A stretch of 64,000 bases of DNA from an uncultured delta proteobacterium (lineage in GTDB: Bacteria > Desulfobacterota > Binatia > UBA9968). Location of the stretch: positions 160,001 through 224,000 of the forward strand of contig CAWDPO010000002.1 of assembly GCA_963804165.1 (NCBI GenBank). Direction: 5' to 3'. The notes under the pieces are model-generated. The model worked only from the letters and a program-made list of their open reading frames with translations, searched no databases and had not been told where the DNA came from. The translations under genes were made by a program, and so were the position numbers. Each line of letters opens with the position of its first letter. Positions within the stretch are counted from its first letter, which is position 1. Shown here one piece after another: positions 2,211 through 47,675 of this stretch.

Positions 2211-3365
2211 TTACGCTTTGTAGCTACACGCCTTCGCCAACCAGTTTGTGGTGAGTTTGGCCGGCGTAATCTTCACAAGGAAATTGCGCATTGCGCACGC
2301 CAGCGGGTTTTCCAACTGCCCGACGCGCCCGATCCTCCGTGATTGCCCGGCGATCCAGGCGGTGCGTGGCATGCGCTCGTTCTCGTAGCGCGTCAAGGCC
2401 GCGGATAATGAGATCTCTTCGGCCAAGCAGCGGGCGAGTGTCACCGCGCTTTCGATGGCCATGCACGCCCCCTGTCCCATGTTGGGCGTTGTGGGCTGCG
2501 CCGCGTCGCCGAGGAGCACCACGCGCTCGTTGCTCCAGCATCTGAGCGGCGCCATATCGTAAATGTCGTTATGGAGAATCTCGTCGGCAGGAGTGGCGTC
2601 GAGCAAGTGTCCGATGGGCGAATGCCAATCGCCGAAACGCTGCCGTAGAAAGTTTTTACGTTCAGCTGCGGTCTGCGATAGTCCTTCCGGGACGTTGGCG
2701 GTGGCAAACCAATAGATTCGTTGTCCATCTATGCGCGCCATGCCGAAGCGCGAGCCGCAGCCCCAACTCTCCGCGCTCCGTCCGAGCGCCGTTTTGTCTT
2801 GAGTCGCCACGACGCCACGCCACGCCGAATAACCCGAGTAGCGTAGCTCGCTCGTAGGAAACAGCCCTTGTCTAAGACTTGAATGAATGCCATCGGCGCC
2901 GACGACCAAATCGGCGCTCTCCTTCCGACCGCCGGGAAAGCTAACACTCGCGCCAGCGCCGTCCGCTTCGACACCGGTGCACCGCGAGTTCAGACAAAGC
3001 GCCCCCTCGGGCAGCGCGGAAACGAGGATTTCGTGCAAATCGGCGCGATGGATCGGCACCGCCGCCTCGCCAAAGCGTTGTTCCAGTGCCGCAAAGTTCC
3101 ATTCCGATAATAAAATTCCCGCCGAGGTGCGGATCTCGCCCCTTTCGATCCTGCCGCCGGCTTCAAGAACCGCATCAGCGAGACCGAGATAACGAAGCGC
3201 CTTGAGGGCATTGGGCCACATCACCAGCGCGGCGCCGACGGCGTTCAGTTGCGGCGCCTGTTCATAGACGACGGTTTGCACGCCGATTCGACGCAGCGCG
3301 ATGGCGGCGCACAGTCCGCCGATGCCGCCGCCGACTATAATGGCTCGCTTGATTACCGCGGGCAT
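2211..3365 (-). CDS. FAD-dependent monooxygenase (group A, salicylate hydroxylase-like)
   Basis: GGGIGG Rossmann motif, VGADGIHS (DG motif), LLGDAAQPTTPNMGQGAC (GD motif). Confidence 0.9.
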   Translation of the reverse strand: MPAVIKRAIIVGGGIGGLCAAIALRRIGVQTVVYEQAPQLNAVGAALVMWPNALKALRYLGLADAVLEAGGRIERGEIRTSAGILLSEWNFAALEQRFGEAAVPIHRADLHEILVSALPEGALCLNSRCTGVEADGAGASVSFPGGRKESADLVVGADGIHSSLRQGLFPTSELRYSGYSAWRGVVATQDKTALGRSAESWGCGSRFGMARIDGQRIYWFATANVPEGLSQTAAERKNFLRQRFGDWHSPIGHLLDATPADEILHNDIYDMAPLRCWSNERVVLLGDAAQPTTPNMGQGACMAIESAVTLARCLAEEISLSAALTRYENERMPRTAWIAGQSRRIGRVGQLENPLACAMRNFLVKITPAKLTTNWLAKACSYKA

Positions 3366-45660: not shown

Positions 45661-46635
45661 CTATGGCGCCGAGCGCTCTTTCGCGAGGGTCATCTCCACC
45701 GGCGCATTGCCTTGATCGTCCATGATTTTCAGCCGAATCTCATTGCCGGCCAATTTTCCCTCATAACGATTTCGCCGCAGCCGCGTCGTGGATCCGGAGA
45801 TCTCTTCAAACCCGACGCTGAATGTAACCGTCTCGCCGACTATTTGACCGCTCTCAATTCCGCGCTTTGCGCCGAGAAAGCTCGCCGTGCCGAAGAGCTT
45901 GTCGCCCTCCGGTTGGAAAAGAAAATGTTCCGTGTATTTTGCCCCCCACGGATAGGCAACCTCGCCCTGCCAAGCACCGGTAAAAGCCGCCGCCTTCGAC
46001 GGCGCCTGTCCGGTCCGGGCAGCCGGCGGCGCGGCATTTTCCTTGCTCGTCTGCCACCACACCGCCAGCGACATCAGCAGGAAAATCAGCGGCACTTTCC
46101 ATACCATCCGGCGCAACAGTTTTTTCCGCAACTCGTCCCTGGCGTCGGAGGCGATGCCCGTCGTCGATTTACCTAGCGCCGGGATTTTTTCGAGCGCCTG
46201 GATCAGCAGATCGACATCTCGCTGAAATTCGTTATCGTTCAAGATCGCGGCATTCTTACCGGCAAGATCTCGCAGATCGTGGCGCAGCTCTTCGGCCCTC
46301 GGCATGCTCGCGCCGCCGACCAAAACCGGGATGACGAGAACGCTGCGCTGCAAGGCAAGCGCCACTTCCATGCCGACAAAGTCATTGGGATCGCTTAAAC
46401 GCAGCTGGCCGTTGGCGGCGCGGGCCGTCAACCAGTTCTTGCCGATCACGGCGAGCAGGGCGTCGCACGAGGCGACTTTGGCGCCGATGTGTGCCGCGAA
46501 ATCCGCTCCCGGGGGGATATCGTCCACGTCCATGAAGATCTGATCCGCGCCGAAACGGCTCGACAGCCGGTCGTACAACCGCCCCGCGTACGGGGCGCTG
46601 TCCTCTCTACGATAGTTGATGAAGATTCCGGACAT
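45661..46635 (-). CDS. TIR domain - TM helix - predicted periplasmic beta-barrel protein
   Basis: IFINYRREDS, IFMDVDDIPPG, DFVGMEVALAL, IPVLV; basic stretch then TM VPLIFLLMSLAVWW; C-terminal FTGAWQG..YEGKLAG beta strands. Confidence 0.88.
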   Translation of the reverse strand: MSGIFINYRREDSAPYAGRLYDRLSSRFGADQIFMDVDDIPPGADFAAHIGAKVASCDALLAVIGKNWLTARAANGQLRLSDPNDFVGMEVALALQRSVLVIPVLVGGASMPRAEELRHDLRDLAGKNAAILNDNEFQRDVDLLIQALEKIPALGKSTTGIASDARDELRKKLLRRMVWKVPLIFLLMSLAVWWQTSKENAAPPAARTGQAPSKAAAFTGAWQGEVAYPWGAKYTEHFLFQPEGDKLFGTASFLGAKRGIESGQIVGETVTFSVGFEEISGSTTRLRRNRYEGKLAGNEIRLKIMDDQGNAPVEMTLAKERSAP

Positions 46636-46676
46636 GCGAAAGAAGGGAAAGCTCGACCGACAGGGATCGCAAAGTC

Positions 46677-47675
46677 TTAGAAGCGAAAACTGCCTCGGAT
46701 GGTCGTGCGCAGCCCGTCAACGGTCGGTACGCCGTATCTACGATCGAGCAGATTGCCGGATCGATCGAAAAAGACCAAGGTTGTTTCGCGCACGCCGAAA
46801 CGACCTGCAAATTGTTGACCCTCGGCTGAACTCAAGTCGACCATCAGAAACGCAATTCGATCTGCAAATTCCGGACGGAGCACGTCGACGACGTGCTTTA
46901 GCTGCACGCAATGGTCTCAGCCGGGGCTGTAGACCTGCACGATCGTGGGATATCTGCCGATGGCGTCAAAGCCGGCGTAATTCAGCGCGTTGACGACCGG
47001 GACCGGTTGCGACGGGATAACCGGCAGGTCAGGCTGCTCCGACTGTTGCTCATACAGACTCACCATGACACCGATAACACCCGCGGCCACCACCCAACCG
47101 ATGTGCTTCTTTTGTTTCCACCAGGGAGTCTTATCTGAATCCTTTTTGAGCCGAGGACCGAGGAACGACTCCAGGGATTGCACCAGTTGATCGACGTCGA
47201 ACTCCCATCTACGATCGCTCAATTCATACGCCTGACGACGGGCGAGGGTTTGGAGCTCGACGGGCAACTGCTCCGCCTTCGGCATCGCCGCGCCGCCGAC
47301 CAGAACGGGAATCACCCGCGTGTTGCGTGTGAGCGCCGTGCCAATTTCCAAACGAATAAAATCATTGGAATCATCGAGACGCCGGCGGCCTTCACCATCC
47401 TTGGCGGACAACCAATTCGGGCCGATGATGGCCAAGAGCACCGGACACTGACTAACGGCTCGATTCAGAGCGTCGACAAAATCCGCTCCCGGCTCAATGG
47501 TTTCGATATCGCGAAAGGTGCGATTAGGGCCAAAGAACTTCTTCAGATCGTCGGTCAAACGCCCGGCGTCGCCCCGAGAATCGTCTCTTCTATAACTGAT
47601 GAAGATACGCGGGCTGTTTTTGCTTTTGTCGCCGAAGATCCGGTCCAACCCAAGCATTTCTAGAAGCGTGCTCAT
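46677..47675 (-). CDS. TIR domain - TM - thioredoxin-like fusion with in-frame UGA (putative selenocysteine, UxxC), 332 aa
   Basis: ORF 46917..47675 ends in TGA in frame with ORF 46677..46907; readthrough gives PTIVQVYSPG-U-DHCVQLK...IAFLMVD...FGVRETTLVFFDRSG. Confidence 0.82.
46879..46897 (-). promoter_or_regulatory. Candidate bacterial SECIS hairpin
   Basis: AGCACGUC-GUC-GACGUGCU: 8-bp perfect stem, loop starting with GU at +28 nt after the UGA. Confidence 0.62.

What the first reader, a model, noticed from the sequence alone, without database searches (positions are those of the whole stretch)
46677..47675. Hidden selenoprotein: TIR - TM - thioredoxin(UxxC) fusion split by the ORF caller at an in-frame UGA
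Seen: the TIR ORF stops at TGA (46917-46919), but the same frame continues GAC CAT TGC into ORF 46677..46907, giving PTIVQVYSPG-U-D-H-C-VQLK. The UGA lies exactly at the N-terminal Cys position of a thioredoxin CxxC, after the usual hydrophobic beta strand, and the downstream sequence (IAFLMVD, FGV..TLVFFD..G) is thioredoxin-like. An 8-bp hairpin with a GU-starting loop lies 28 nt downstream. Established: UxxC thioredoxin-fold proteins are a major selenoprotein class, and bacterial TIR domains are often NADases needing a conserved Glu (present: DFIRLEIG). Inference: Lys-rich residues before the TM helix put TIR in the cytoplasm and the seleno-Trx outside, suggesting a receptor coupling periplasmic redox state to NAD+-derived signalling or defence. 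I do not know of a described TIR-containing selenoprotein. The usual Trx cis-Pro appears absent (VRETT), which may suit a sensor better than a reductase.
Basis: partly seen in the sequence, partly recalled or inferred. Interest (0 to 1): 0.92.

Follow-up and report, generated by a model that had tools for sequence, protein, structure and literature searches.

The report
TIR–membrane–thioredoxin selenoprotein hidden by UGA
Two adjacent "genes" are really one membrane protein that joins a SARM1-like TIR domain inside the cell to a selenocysteine-containing thioredoxin-like domain outside it, a combination I found described in no paper or curated family.

Summary
The TIR ORF (46917..47675, minus strand) stops at TGA, and the same frame runs on to TAA at 46677. 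Read through, it gives 332 aa: TIR, one transmembrane helix, a Pro-rich linker, and a thioredoxin-fold domain with motif U253-D-H-C256.

- **Conservation:** all 13 related loci fetched (11 non-redundant, 44–88% identical in this domain) carry TGA at this codon. One database homolog (P0010) carries Cys.
- **Truncated calls:** at least 41 of the 120 best database cluster representatives end exactly at this codon.
- **Coding signal:** sequence after the TGA is under purifying selection in frame (dN/dS 0.10–0.35).
- **SECIS candidate:** a hairpin 19 nt after the UGA shows two compensatory pair changes and the strongest synonymous-site constraint in the region.
- **Machinery:** the genome has selA, selB, a Sec-containing selD and tRNA-Sec(UCA).
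- **TIR:** it resembles SARM1, and E110 aligns with SARM1 position 642, the catalytic Glu E642.
- **Topology:** charges flanking the helix put TIR in the cytoplasm and the seleno-domain outside.
- **Family features:** Thr replaces the thioredoxin cis-Pro family-wide. The same seleno-module is fused to a caspase-like protease in other bacteria.

The selenoprotein call is strong (about 0.85–0.9). The redox-sensor-to-NADase mechanism is inference (about 0.35).

The parts
46677..47675 (-). Whole selenoprotein gene: 332 codons plus TAA stop (46677-46679), with one in-frame UGA
   Evidence: orthologs with the same architecture
47184..47606 (-). TIR domain (residues 24-164), SARM1-like
   Evidence: Pfam TIR_2, E 1.5e-11, 45.2 bits. 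The best solved relatives are all SARM1 TIR chains, 18 of 18 hits, best E 6.6e-7.
47346..47348 (-). Codon of Glu110 (GAA), the putative catalytic Glu
   Evidence: Aligned to residue 642 of the 724-residue SARM1 chain, by arithmetic on the alignment. E642 is the catalytic Glu according to passages of PMC7282519. Invariant in the 3-sequence alignment.
47049..47105 (-). Single transmembrane helix (about residues 191-209, HIGWVVAAGVIGVMVSLYE)
   Evidence: Hydropathy maximum after the TIR domain. The N-flank has 6 K/R and the C-flank 0 K/R and 2 D/E. The same pattern holds in 18 of 18 family members.
46974..47048 (-). Pro-rich, acidic linker (about residues 210-234); 43 residues from helix end to Sec here, 42-96 in relatives
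   Evidence: linker 12-25% Pro in the members examined
46698..46949 (-). Thioredoxin-fold domain (residues 243-326) spanning the UGA
   Evidence: Pfam Thioredoxin, 25.3 bits on the piece. The family profile hits solved thioredoxins at E down to 7e-18. The ESM Atlas model of the Cys-form homolog P0010 matches thioredoxin clusters at TM 0.74-0.85.
46917..46919 (-). UGA = Sec253, first position of the U-D-H-C redox motif
   Evidence: TGA in 13 of 13 loci and Cys in P0010. Aligned to the first Cys of CGPC.
46908..46910 (-). Codon of Cys256, the resolving Cys of UxxC
   Evidence: Invariant TGC/TGT in the 11 non-redundant loci (codon +3)
46879..46897 (-). Candidate bacterial SECIS: 8-bp hairpin with GUC loop, starting 19 nt after the UGA
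   Evidence: 93.8% of cells paired, with 2 pairs showing compensatory changes. RNAalifold picks its 6-bp core. A 7-8 bp stem lies at the same place in 10 of 13 loci. Third-codon-position entropy is the lowest of 81 windows.
46779..46781 (-). Codon of Thr299, occupying the position of the thioredoxin cis-Pro
   Evidence: The profile alignment to solved thioredoxins puts the family's conserved Thr on the Pro of ...SIPT.... Thr is at least 90% conserved in the 63-sequence alignment.
45661..46635 (-). Downstream paralog, 41 nt after the stop: a second TIR-TM protein (324 aa) with an unassigned ~120-aa C-terminal ectodomain; probably co-transcribed
   Evidence: Pfam TIR_2, E 5.4e-12. The same gene pair is present in L034 and L035. 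No terminator-like site lies between the two genes.

Best explanation
Window 46677..47675 (minus strand) is one gene for a 332-residue, single-pass membrane selenoprotein.

**Shown by computation**
- The in-frame UGA sits at the nucleophilic first position of a thioredoxin-type CxxC.
- It is conserved as UGA in every related locus fetched, and one homolog has Cys there.
- The downstream sequence is kept under purifying selection in the same frame.
- A conserved hairpin starts 19 nt after the UGA.
- The genome encodes SelA, SelB, a Sec-containing SelD and tRNA-Sec(UCA).

**Inferred**
SelB with Sec-tRNA reads the UGA with the help of that hairpin (SECIS), giving U253-D-H-C256.

**Architecture**
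- N-terminal cytoplasmic SARM1-like TIR domain, with Glu110 at the catalytic position.
- One transmembrane helix, oriented N-in by the positive-inside rule.
- A Pro-rich linker.
- An extracytoplasmic thioredoxin-fold domain that lacks the cis-Pro (Thr299 instead).

**Proposed mechanism (inference, about 0.35)**
- The seleno-domain is a sensor rather than a turnover enzyme.
- Oxidation, or capture of a thiol or disulfide partner at Sec253, changes the association state of the ectodomains. This could involve an intermolecular selenylsulfide or diselenide.
- That change clusters the cytoplasmic TIR domains, which need self-association to cleave NAD+.
- An envelope redox cue thereby becomes NAD+ depletion or an NAD+-derived signal.

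The confidence given is for the selenoprotein and its architecture.
For: **UGA conservation**
- TGA at the same codon in 13 of 13 loci: the window, L034-L044 and L047. Eleven are non-redundant and 44-88% identical to the window in this domain.
- In a class-wide scan of 401 genomes, the 4 genomes with the ortholog each have exactly 1 TGA there.
- P0010, the only full-length database homolog, has Cys (CPPC) at that place.

**Truncated database calls**
- 33 of the 120 best cluster representatives end at ...VQV..PG.
- At least 8 more, among the 60 I printed, end at ...VQVY[DE]PT. All are cut at this codon.

**Coding signal after the UGA**
- dN/dS over the 70 codons after the TGA is 0.10-0.35 in every pair for which dS could be computed.

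**Fold**
- The profile of 63 family members aligns U/CxxC onto the CGPC of solved thioredoxins, E 7e-17.
- The Atlas model of P0010's C-terminal domain matches thioredoxin clusters at TM 0.74-0.85.

**Hairpin**
- 93.8% of cells are paired, against 15-60% when the 3' partner is slid by 1-3 columns.
- Two pairs changed on both sides (A-U to G-C; C-G to U-A). These changes also alter the amino acids: H/V, R/A, R/T.
- Third-position entropy is 0.53 bit over codons +7..+13 against 1.35 elsewhere, the lowest of 81 windows. Only 2 of 100000 random codon sets are as low.

**Sec machinery**
- selA 536 bits, SelB wing domain 79 bits, selD 385 bits with an in-frame TGA at the canonical ...AAG-U-AAKLGP site, and tRNA-Sec 76 bits with anticodon TCA.

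**TIR and topology**
- TIR; E110 aligns with SARM1 position 642; E642 is catalytic per PMC7282519 passages.
- Topology: 18 of 18 members have 3-6 K/R before the helix, and 0-2 K/R with 1-6 D/E after it.

**Sensor reading**
- Thr occupies the cis-Pro position family-wide.
- A DsbA cis-Pro-to-Thr mutant is impaired in turnover (PMC13269488 passages).
- Paralogs in the genus keep TIR-TM but carry other ectodomains.
- The same UPPC module is fused to a Peptidase_C14 caspase-like domain in L041/L042, E 8.8e-39.
Against: **No direct evidence**
- No selenium incorporation, expression, NADase activity or topology was measured.

**Weak points of the hairpin**
- RNAfold z-score of the window's 48 nt is only -0.59.
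- No Rfam family matched.
- A comparable hairpin follows about 3% of random positions.
- 3 of 13 loci (L040-L042) have only a 5-6 bp version.
- The two compensatory changes are two events in related lineages, so covariation is modest.
- The 19-nt spacer is longer than the 11 nt I recall for E. coli fdhF.

**Other weaknesses**
- The Pfam Thioredoxin score is below the cut-off on the whole protein (21.8 against 23.5).
- Only one Cys homolog has the full architecture, which is unusual for a selenoprotein family. The isolated domain does have many Cys-form relatives.

**Against the mechanism**
- No conserved partner gene: neighbours are ordinary metabolic genes.
- In the caspase fusion both domains lie on the same side of the membrane, so transmembrane signalling is not a general property of the module.
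- The missing cis-Pro could mean a degenerate rather than a sensing domain.
Confidence: 0.82

Rival explanations
1. The UGA is a true stop. The gene makes a 252-aa TIR-TM protein, and the thioredoxin-like remainder is either a separately initiated small protein or an untranslated relic.
For: Gene callers and public annotation treat it this way. For example, P0026 (299 aa), named 'TIR domain-containing protein' by NCBI, ends at this codon. The window has a GTG four codons after the TGA. No expression data were available.
Against: - Purifying selection acts in the same frame after the TGA in all comparisons.
- The codon that could serve as a start is not conserved: GTG, TTG, CTT, CAA, ATG or CTG.
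- A product starting after the TGA would lack strand beta1 and the whole UxxC site, which align as one domain with Cys-containing thioredoxins.
- P0010 is a continuous protein with Cys at that position.
- A relic would not keep TGA at exactly the Cys position in 13 of 13 loci.
Confidence: 0.05
2. It is a real selenoprotein, but the seleno-domain is a working membrane-anchored periplasmic thiol-disulfide oxidoreductase, like the small anchored relatives. The TIR is a scaffold or regulator, not an output of redox sensing.
For: - The nearest relatives of the domain are ~150-aa proteins made of an N-terminal anchor plus this domain with CxxC (P0132, P0139, P0145, P0148).
- Sec-containing thioredoxin, DsbA-like and thiol:disulfide interchange proteins are established bacterial selenoprotein classes (PMC1794560 table).
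- Sec normally marks catalytic sites.
Against: - Thr stands at the cis-Pro position in at least 90% of the family. Replacing that Pro in DsbA impairs turnover (PMC13269488 passages).
- Some small relatives have lost both Cys (P0129, P0150).
- This reading leaves unexplained the fusion to TIR across a membrane and to a caspase-like protease.
Confidence: 0.2
3. It is the sensor and signal-generating part of an anti-phage or abortive-infection system of Thoeris or CBASS logic. The TIR makes an NAD+-derived signal that switches on a separate effector, and the ectodomain detects an envelope cue of infection rather than general redox stress.
For: - Weak matches to ThsB models: PADLOC ThsB1, 24.8 bits; NCBIfam ThcB4, 33 bits.
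- In L044 and L047 (one genus) the gene immediately upstream, on the same strand, is a patatin-like phospholipase. It matches the PADLOC 'Effector, Phospholipase' model at E 4e-46 and Pfam Patatin at E 2e-25.
- TIR and caspase-like domains are typical effector domains of defence systems (my recall).
Against: - The ThcB4 score is far below its cut-off of 220.
- None of the ten neighbouring ORFs of the window scanned with Pfam has a defence-related domain; the domains found are metabolic or transport-related.
- The patatin gene was not found in the window's genome with this query; the genome is 81% complete.
- The locus sits in conserved metabolic synteny, between an NMT1-type binding protein and an M24 peptidase, not in a defence island.
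Confidence: 0.2
4. The UGA is read through, but by another amino acid (Trp, Cys or Arg by near-cognate suppression, or a reassigned code) rather than selenocysteine.
For: Computation cannot identify the inserted residue.
Against: - A complete Sec pathway is present, and SelD itself needs it.
- UGA is also used as a normal stop in this lineage: the orthologs in L043 and L047 end in TGA.
- The codon sits at a redox Cys position and is followed by a conserved hairpin, the signature of Sec decoding.
Confidence: 0.03

Closest known systems
Sec-containing thioredoxin-fold proteins of bacteria (thioredoxin, DsbA-like, thiol:disulfide interchange protein, Prx-like thiol:disulfide oxidoreductase; Zhang et al. 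2006, PMC1794560, table seen)
   Same: UGA at the redox Cys of a thioredoxin-fold CxxC, Cys-containing homologs, a hairpin downstream, and occurrence in deltaproteobacterial lineages rich in selenoproteins.
   Different: - Here the domain lacks the cis-Pro and is tethered outside the membrane.
- It is fused to a TIR domain, or in relatives to a caspase-like domain.
- No curated NCBIfam model reaches its cut-off (best thioredoxin-type model TIGR00411, 20 bits against 92.75).
- Direct homology to the published Sec-thioredoxins was not tested.
SARM1 TIR domain and prokaryotic TIR NADases (ThsB of Thoeris)
   Same: Full-length TIR alignment to SARM1 (E 6.6e-7), including an insertion at the same place as a SARM1 loop. 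Glu110 lies on position 642. Catalytic role of that Glu and need for self-association: passages of PMC7282519.
   Different: - No SAM or ARM domains and no ThsA partner.
- It is anchored by a transmembrane helix to an extracytoplasmic domain.
- NADase activity was not tested.
- ThsB-type models match only weakly.
Unnamed family of ~150-aa membrane-anchored thioredoxin-like proteins (P0132, P0139, P0145, P0148 and about 50 others in alignment A4)
   Same: Same domain at 25-40% identity...G.P.VVQVHDP.C..C..L... and ...VTL.FFD..G..., the same Thr at the cis-Pro position, and an N-terminal anchor that puts the domain outside.
   Different: They have Cys instead of Sec and no TIR or caspase domain. 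Some have lost both Cys. The sources give no informative name: 'hypothetical protein' or none.
Anchored periplasmic thioredoxin-like reductases such as TlpA, ResA and CcmG (recalled, not tested here)
   Same: A single N-terminal anchor with a periplasmic thioredoxin fold and CxxC.
   Different: As I recall, those keep the cis-Pro and act as turnover reductases in cytochrome maturation. No membership test was run.

Membership tests
Bacterial selenoprotein (SelB/SECIS-dependent UGA decoding) | In-frame UGA conserved in orthologs, with conservation on both sides | tested here: met
   13 of 13 loci have TGA. dN/dS downstream is 0.10-0.35. The upstream beta1 strand is conserved.
Bacterial selenoprotein (SelB/SECIS-dependent UGA decoding) | Homologs with Cys aligned to the UGA | tested here: met
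   P0010 has CPPC at the same place. The small anchored relatives have CxxC, and solved thioredoxins have CGPC.
Bacterial selenoprotein (SelB/SECIS-dependent UGA decoding) | SECIS stem-loop shortly downstream of the UGA, with a G in the apical loop (the conserved G appears in a figure legend of PMC1794560; the distance limits of 16-37 nt are my recall of bSECISearch) | tested here: inconclusive
   **For:** an 8-bp hairpin with loop GUC, 27 nt between the UGA and the loop, conserved in 10 of 13 loci, with 2 compensatory pairs and strong synonymous constraint.

**Against:** z-score -0.59, no Rfam hit, weaker in 3 loci, and no bSECISearch run was possible.
Bacterial selenoprotein (SelB/SECIS-dependent UGA decoding) | Genome encodes SelA, SelB, SelD and tRNA-Sec | tested here: met
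Bacterial selenoprotein (SelB/SECIS-dependent UGA decoding) | Selenium found in the protein | not testable with these tools
   Needs 75Se labelling or mass spectrometry.
Thioredoxin fold (Pfam PF00085 / clan) | Profile match over the fold at or above the curated threshold | tested here: met
   25.3 bits against a cut-off of 23.5 on the domain piece, but 21.8 on the whole protein. The family profile against PDB thioredoxins reaches E 7e-17 over 92-94 residues. The Atlas model of P0010 gives TM 0.74-0.85.
Thioredoxin fold (Pfam PF00085 / clan) | CxxC at the N-terminus of helix 1 | tested here: met
   U253-D-H-C256 aligned on CGPC
Thioredoxin fold (Pfam PF00085 / clan) | cis-Pro loop facing the active site | tested here: not met
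   Thr299 is at that position and no Pro is present in G-V-R-E-T-T-L-V-F-F. Thr is at least 90% conserved in the family. It is therefore thioredoxin-fold, but not a canonical thioredoxin, Dsb or TlpA enzyme.
TIR domain, NADase type (Pfam TIR_2, SARM1-like) | TIR_2 profile match above the cut-off | tested here: met
   45.2 bits against 28
TIR domain, NADase type (Pfam TIR_2, SARM1-like) | Catalytic Glu equivalent to SARM1 E642 | tested here: met
   E110 aligns with residue 642 (using the 724-aa chain, query 15-169 to chain 555-700). Invariant in the 3-sequence alignment.
TIR domain, NADase type (Pfam TIR_2, SARM1-like) | NAD+ cleavage | not testable with these tools
   An enzyme assay is needed.
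Thoeris ThsB / type III ThcB4 | Match to the curated model above its cut-off | tested here: not met
   NCBIfam ThcB4, 33.1 bits against a cut-off of 220. PADLOC ThsB1, 24.8 bits over 69 residues only.
Thoeris ThsB / type III ThcB4 | Adjacent ThsA-type effector gene | tested here: not met
   None of the ten neighbouring ORFs scanned has a defence-related Pfam domain; the domains found are metabolic or transport-related. A patatin-like gene lies next to the ortholog only in L044 and L047.

The most novel reading that the evidence does not exclude
The seleno-thioredoxin module is a portable, selenium-based 'redox tripwire' for bacterial death or immune effectors. Outside the membrane, Sec253 reacts with an oxidant or a thiol/disulfide cue. 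The resulting cross-link clusters a SARM1-like TIR NADase inside the cell; in other bacteria the same module regulates an attached caspase-like protease. If so, this would be the first TIR-domain and the first caspase-domain selenoproteins. It would also be the first case of selenocysteine used for signal perception rather than catalysis in a bacterial receptor.
Probability: 0.3. Interest if true: 0.85.

Novelty: new variant of a known kind. Interest (0 to 1): 0.66.

Why it matters
**Annotation**
- Public records and gene callers cut this family at the UGA. At least 41 of the 120 cluster representatives listed are cut there, including proteins that NCBI names 'TIR domain-containing protein'.
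- The extracytoplasmic half, and with it the likely input domain, is therefore invisible in current annotation.

**Selenium biology**
- It adds a family that uses Sec almost exclusively: 41 or more truncated Sec forms against 1 full-length Cys form among the 120 listed.
- The protein context (TIR, caspase-like) is outside the usual redox-enzyme repertoire.

**TIR biology**
- It offers a simple, testable single-pass receptor in which an outside chemical state could gate a SARM1-like NADase.

**Thioredoxin-fold enzymology**
- It is a natural family that dispenses with the cis-Pro, which a 2026 paper calls universal (PMC13269488, abstract and passages seen).

Tried and rejected

**Searches that found nothing useful**
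- An Rfam scan of 46600-47000 found nothing. I do not count this against a SECIS, because I do not know which bacterial SECIS models Rfam holds.
- RNAfold of the window's 48 nt alone gave z = -0.59. The single-sequence energy argument is rejected in favour of comparative evidence.
- The look-up of sequencing runs listed no RNA holder, so there is nothing on expression.
- Laid contigs covered only parts of the gene. Uncovered parts mean nothing.
- Names of relatives were only 'hypothetical protein' or blank.

**Ideas considered and rejected**
- The patatin gene of L044 was sought in the window's genome and not found with this query (genome 81% complete). The patatin link is therefore not part of the explanation for this window.
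- A TIR paralog on G000:C18 with an in-frame TGA turned out to be a frame-shifted or broken TIR, not a second selenoprotein.
- Base-call error is excluded by 13 independent loci.
- An alternative genetic code is excluded because orthologs terminate at TGA.

**Limits of the literature check**
- No paper combined bacterial selenoproteins with TIR, caspase or metacaspase terms (main texts of PMC12013277 and PMC13326102 searched for TIR, toll and caspase, with 0 occurrences).
- The family tables of those papers are in supplements, which were closed. A listing there under a generic 'thioredoxin-like' name cannot be excluded.
- A search for TIR/transmembrane/thioredoxin architectures returned only unrelated papers.
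Full report
**1. What is in the sequence**

On the minus strand, an ATG at 47675 opens a 252-codon ORF that ends in TGA at 46919-46917. The next codons in the same frame are GAC CAT TGC. The frame stays open to TAA at 46679-46677. Read with TGA=U, the product has 332 residues and contains ...YPTIVQVYSPG-U253-D-H-C256-VQLKHVVDVLRPEF....

Pfam finds two domains:
- TIR_2 at residues 24-164 (45.2 bits, cut-off 28).
- Thioredoxin at residues 243-326, lying across the TGA. It scores 25.3 bits on a 94-residue piece, just over the 23.5 cut-off, and 21.8 bits on the whole protein, just under it.

This includes the 8-bp hairpin AGCACGUC-GUC-GACGUGCU at 46897-46879, whose loop starts at the 28th base after the UGA.

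**2. Is the UGA decoded?**

*Sec machinery.* The window lies in a 7.5-Mb assembly of 46 contigs, 81% complete. Its Sec pathway is complete:
- selA scores 536 bits.
- The SelB wing-3 domain scores 79 bits.
- selD scores 385 bits.
- These three lie side by side on contig C16.
- tRNA-Sec scores 76 bits on C24 and has anticodon TCA.
- selD itself has an in-frame TGA at the canonical ...AAG-U-AAKLGP... site, so the organism must decode UGA as Sec to make selenophosphate synthetase.

*Relatives.* A domain alignment was used to scan public contigs. It brought 9 metagenome loci and 2 genome loci. A scan of 401 genomes of the class found the ortholog in 4 genomes (G000, G015, G311, G383), each with exactly one TGA inside the match.
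- In all 13 loci (window, L034-L044, L047) the codon after ...VQ[VI]..PG is TGA, followed by xxC.
- Eleven loci are non-redundant: L036 is nearly identical to L035, and L042 to L041.
- They are 44-88% identical to the window in this domain.

*The protein database tells the same story from the other side.*
- Of the 120 best cluster representatives returned for the read-through protein, 33 end at ...VQV..PG.
- At least 8 more, among the 60 I printed, end at ...VQVY[DE]PT. All are cut at this codon.
- Only P0010 (382 aa, 51% identical over 99% of the query) runs through, and it has Cys...VVQVYNPG-C-PPC-QELRRVVDALRPEF....

This is the Sec/Cys pair that the field uses to call selenoproteins (criteria as described in PMC12013277, passages seen).

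*Selection downstream.* Over the 70 codons after the TGA, Nei-Gojobori dN/dS between loci is 0.10-0.35 in every pair whose dS could be computed. Many distant pairs are saturated at synonymous sites.

A separate start cannot explain this:
- The codon at +4 is GTG, TTG, CTT, CAA, ATG or CTG in different loci.
- A product begun there would lack strand beta1 and the redox motif.

Base-call error is excluded by the independent assemblies. In addition, contigs of two other public runs cover 46743-46964 and 46785-46935 with no difference. A reassigned code is excluded because the orthologs in L043 and L047 terminate at TGA.

**3. The hairpin**

Evidence for a functional structure:
- In the 12-sequence alignment A3, the stem (columns 26-33 with 37-44) is paired in 93.8% of cells, against 15-60% when the 3' partner is slid by 1-3 columns.
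- One of 500 column shuffles reaches the observed pairing or covariation score.
- Two pairs changed on both sides (A-U to G-C; C-G to U-A), and one pair changes G-C to G-U.
- RNAalifold independently chooses the 6-bp core.
- The compensatory changes are not silent. They turn His/Val into Arg/Ala and Arg/Thr (CAC/GUG, CGC/GCG, CGU/ACG), as if pairing outranked the residues.
- Third-codon-position entropy across 11 non-redundant loci is 0.53 bit for codons +7 to +13, which is exactly the hairpin, against 1.35 bit elsewhere. It is the lowest of 81 seven-codon windows, and only 2 of 100000 random codon sets are as low.
- Ten of 13 loci have a 7-8 bp stem at the identical place.

Evidence that weakens it:
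- The three loci of the caspase-type lineage have only 5-6 bp.
- The single-sequence folding energy is unremarkable, z = -0.59.
- No Rfam family matches.
- A hairpin of this geometry follows about 3% of random positions in this genome.
- The covariation amounts to two evolutionary events.
- The geometry rule I applied (16-37 nt to the loop, G early in the loop) is my recall of bSECISearch. Only the conserved apical G is confirmed, from a figure legend of PMC1794560.

I therefore rate the SECIS as probable and the selenoprotein call as strong.

**4. The domains**

*TIR.*
- All 18 solved chains matched are SARM1 TIR domains, best E 6.6e-7, aligned over residues 18-167.
- The 724-residue chain aligns query 15-169 to chain 555-700. 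Counting the gaps printed in the alignment, Glu110 (in DFIRLEIG) falls on residue 642.
- E642 is the Glu required for NAD+ hydrolysis. Prokaryotic TIRs need the equivalent Glu and self-association (PMC7282519, passages).

*Membrane helix.*
- After the TIR comes one hydrophobic segment, about residues 191-209.
- In 18 of 18 family members examined, the 15 residues before it hold 3-6 Lys/Arg. The 15 after it hold 0-2 Lys/Arg and 1-6 Asp/Glu.
- By the positive-inside rule, and with no N-terminal signal peptide, the TIR is cytoplasmic and the C-terminal domain is outside.
- A 42-96-residue linker with 12-25% Pro follows.

*Thioredoxin-like domain.*
- A profile of 63 family sequences (A4) hits 288 solved sequences at E <= 0.01. 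These are almost all thioredoxins and PDI domains, with E down to 7e-18. U/C-x-x-C lies on C-G-P-C.
- The ESM Atlas's own model of P0010 matches thioredoxin clusters at TM 0.74-0.85 over residues 274-375.
- The same alignment puts the family's near-invariant Thr (Thr299 here) on the cis-Pro of ...S-I-P-T-L-L-L-F..., and there is no Pro anywhere in that loop.
- A 2026 study calls the cis-Pro loop a universal catalytic lock. It shows that DsbA P151T keeps its redox potential but completes turnover poorly, and notes that this mutation was earlier linked to substrate trapping (PMC13269488, abstract and passages).

**5. Relatives and context**

- *Nearest Cys-containing relatives of the domain.* These are about 150-aa proteins with an N-terminal anchor and the motif ...G.P.VVQVHDP.C..C... 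(P0132, P0139, P0145, P0148). A few have lost both Cys (P0129, P0150). The sources give them no informative name.
- *Caspase fusion.* In L041/L042 the same UPPC module sits at the end of a protein with an N-terminal anchor and a Peptidase_C14 caspase-like domain, E 8.8e-39. The module is therefore shared between two kinds of 'executioner' domain.
- *Paralogs.* In the window's genus, TIR-TM proteins with other C-terminal ectodomains are common. The TIR part matched in 26 of 30 genus genomes, and examples appear. One such paralog (45661..46635) lies 41 nt downstream of the selenoprotein gene here, and also in L034 and L035.
- *Neighbours.* The surrounding genes are ordinary: an NMT1-type binding protein, M24 peptidases, an enolase-superfamily protein, and an octopine-type dehydrogenase. 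The M24/enolase synteny is kept in L035, L044 and L047.
- *Patatin.* In L044 and L047 (one genus) a patatin-like phospholipase lies directly upstream. It matches the PADLOC 'Effector, Phospholipase' model at E 4e-46. It was not found in the window's genome with that query.
- *Thoeris models.* They match only weakly: 33 bits against a cut-off of 220.
- *Lineage.* Record titles of a same-genus and a same-family relative read 'uncultured delta proteobacterium' and 'uncultured Syntrophobacteraceae bacterium'. Cultured members of this lineage are noted for large selenoproteomes (PMC1794560 passages).

**6. How it most likely works**

*Shown by computation.* There is one reading frame, Sec at the thioredoxin nucleophile position, an N-in single-pass topology by charge, and a TIR with the catalytic Glu.

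*Inferred.*
- SelB decodes the UGA with the help of the hairpin while the nascent chain is already in the membrane.
- The ectodomain lacks the cis-Pro that turnover enzymes need, and it carries a very reactive selenolate. It therefore acts as a sensor or trap rather than as a reductase.
- Its oxidised or cross-linked state brings the receptors together, which the TIR domains need for NAD+ cleavage.
- The output would be NAD+ depletion or a nucleotide signal.

I put about 0.35 on this mechanism. I put about 0.2 on a working oxidoreductase with a scaffolding TIR, and about 0.2 on a dedicated anti-phage role. The last overlaps with the first in its output.

**7. Known or new**

Sec-containing thioredoxin-fold proteins with UxxC are a classical selenoprotein class, and TIR NADases are well known. 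The following were found in no paper:
- the fusion of the two across a membrane,
- the caspase-linked sibling,
- the near-exclusive use of Sec,
- the family-wide loss of the cis-Pro.

The searches were made, plus the main texts of the deep-Sep and BSepDB papers. No NCBIfam model reaches its cut-off. Public annotation truncates the proteins at the UGA.

Supplementary family lists were closed, so a generic earlier listing cannot be excluded. I class the finding as a new variant of a known kind.

**8. Limits**

- There are no experimental data of any kind.
- Covariation support rests on few independent events.

Noticed in passing
L041:47-1378 and L042:3-1127: A second hidden selenoprotein architecture: N-terminal anchor, then a Peptidase_C14 caspase-like domain (E 8.8e-39), a Pro-rich linker, and the same thioredoxin-like module with U-P-P-C. 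Gene callers would cut it at the UGA as well.
   Followed up: partly
window 45661-46635 (-): Tandem paralog: TIR-TM plus an unassigned ~120-aa C-terminal ectodomain with no Pfam match. It is conserved at 317-325 aa in several genomes of the genus (L020-L024). Other paralogs (L025, L030) carry a different ~230-aa ectodomain. Together they look like a family of TIR-output single-pass receptors.
   Followed up: partly
L044:349-1467 and L047 (about 2720-3316, cut by the locus end): A patatin-like phospholipase matching the PADLOC 'Effector, Phospholipase' model (E 4e-46) lies directly upstream of the seleno-TIR gene on the same strand, in two genomes of one genus. It was not found in the window's genome.
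   Followed up: partly
G000:C16:139949-144114: selA, selB and selD lie side by side. SelD is itself a selenoprotein, with an in-frame TGA at ...AAG-U-AAKLGP....
   Followed up: yes
G000:C18:721-1947: A TIR paralog with N-terminal hydrophobic segments whose TIR domain is split over two frames (two overlapping hits, with TGAs in the read-through). It is a probable frameshift, pseudogene or assembly error, not a Sec site.
   Followed up: partly
L038, L039, L043 (C-terminal ~35 residues); also P0125: Some orthologs carry an extra conserved C-terminal tail after the thioredoxin-like domain, ending ...IIDSMGR. It is absent from the window's protein.
   Followed up: no
P0129, P0150: Members of the small anchored thioredoxin-like family that have lost both active-site Cys yet keep the rest of the domain. 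This hints at a non-catalytic binding role for the fold.
   Followed up: no
window clade versus other orthologs (codons +1 and +2): The dipeptide between Sec and Cys is D/E-H in the window's clade (window, L034-L036) but P-P or L-P in all other loci. Such a shift usually tunes the redox potential of CxxC motifs (my recall).
   Followed up: no
G025:C12:39325-39768 and G016:C18:2645-3127: Two TIR paralogs in related genomes are listed with one in-frame TAG each. Not examined.
   Followed up: no
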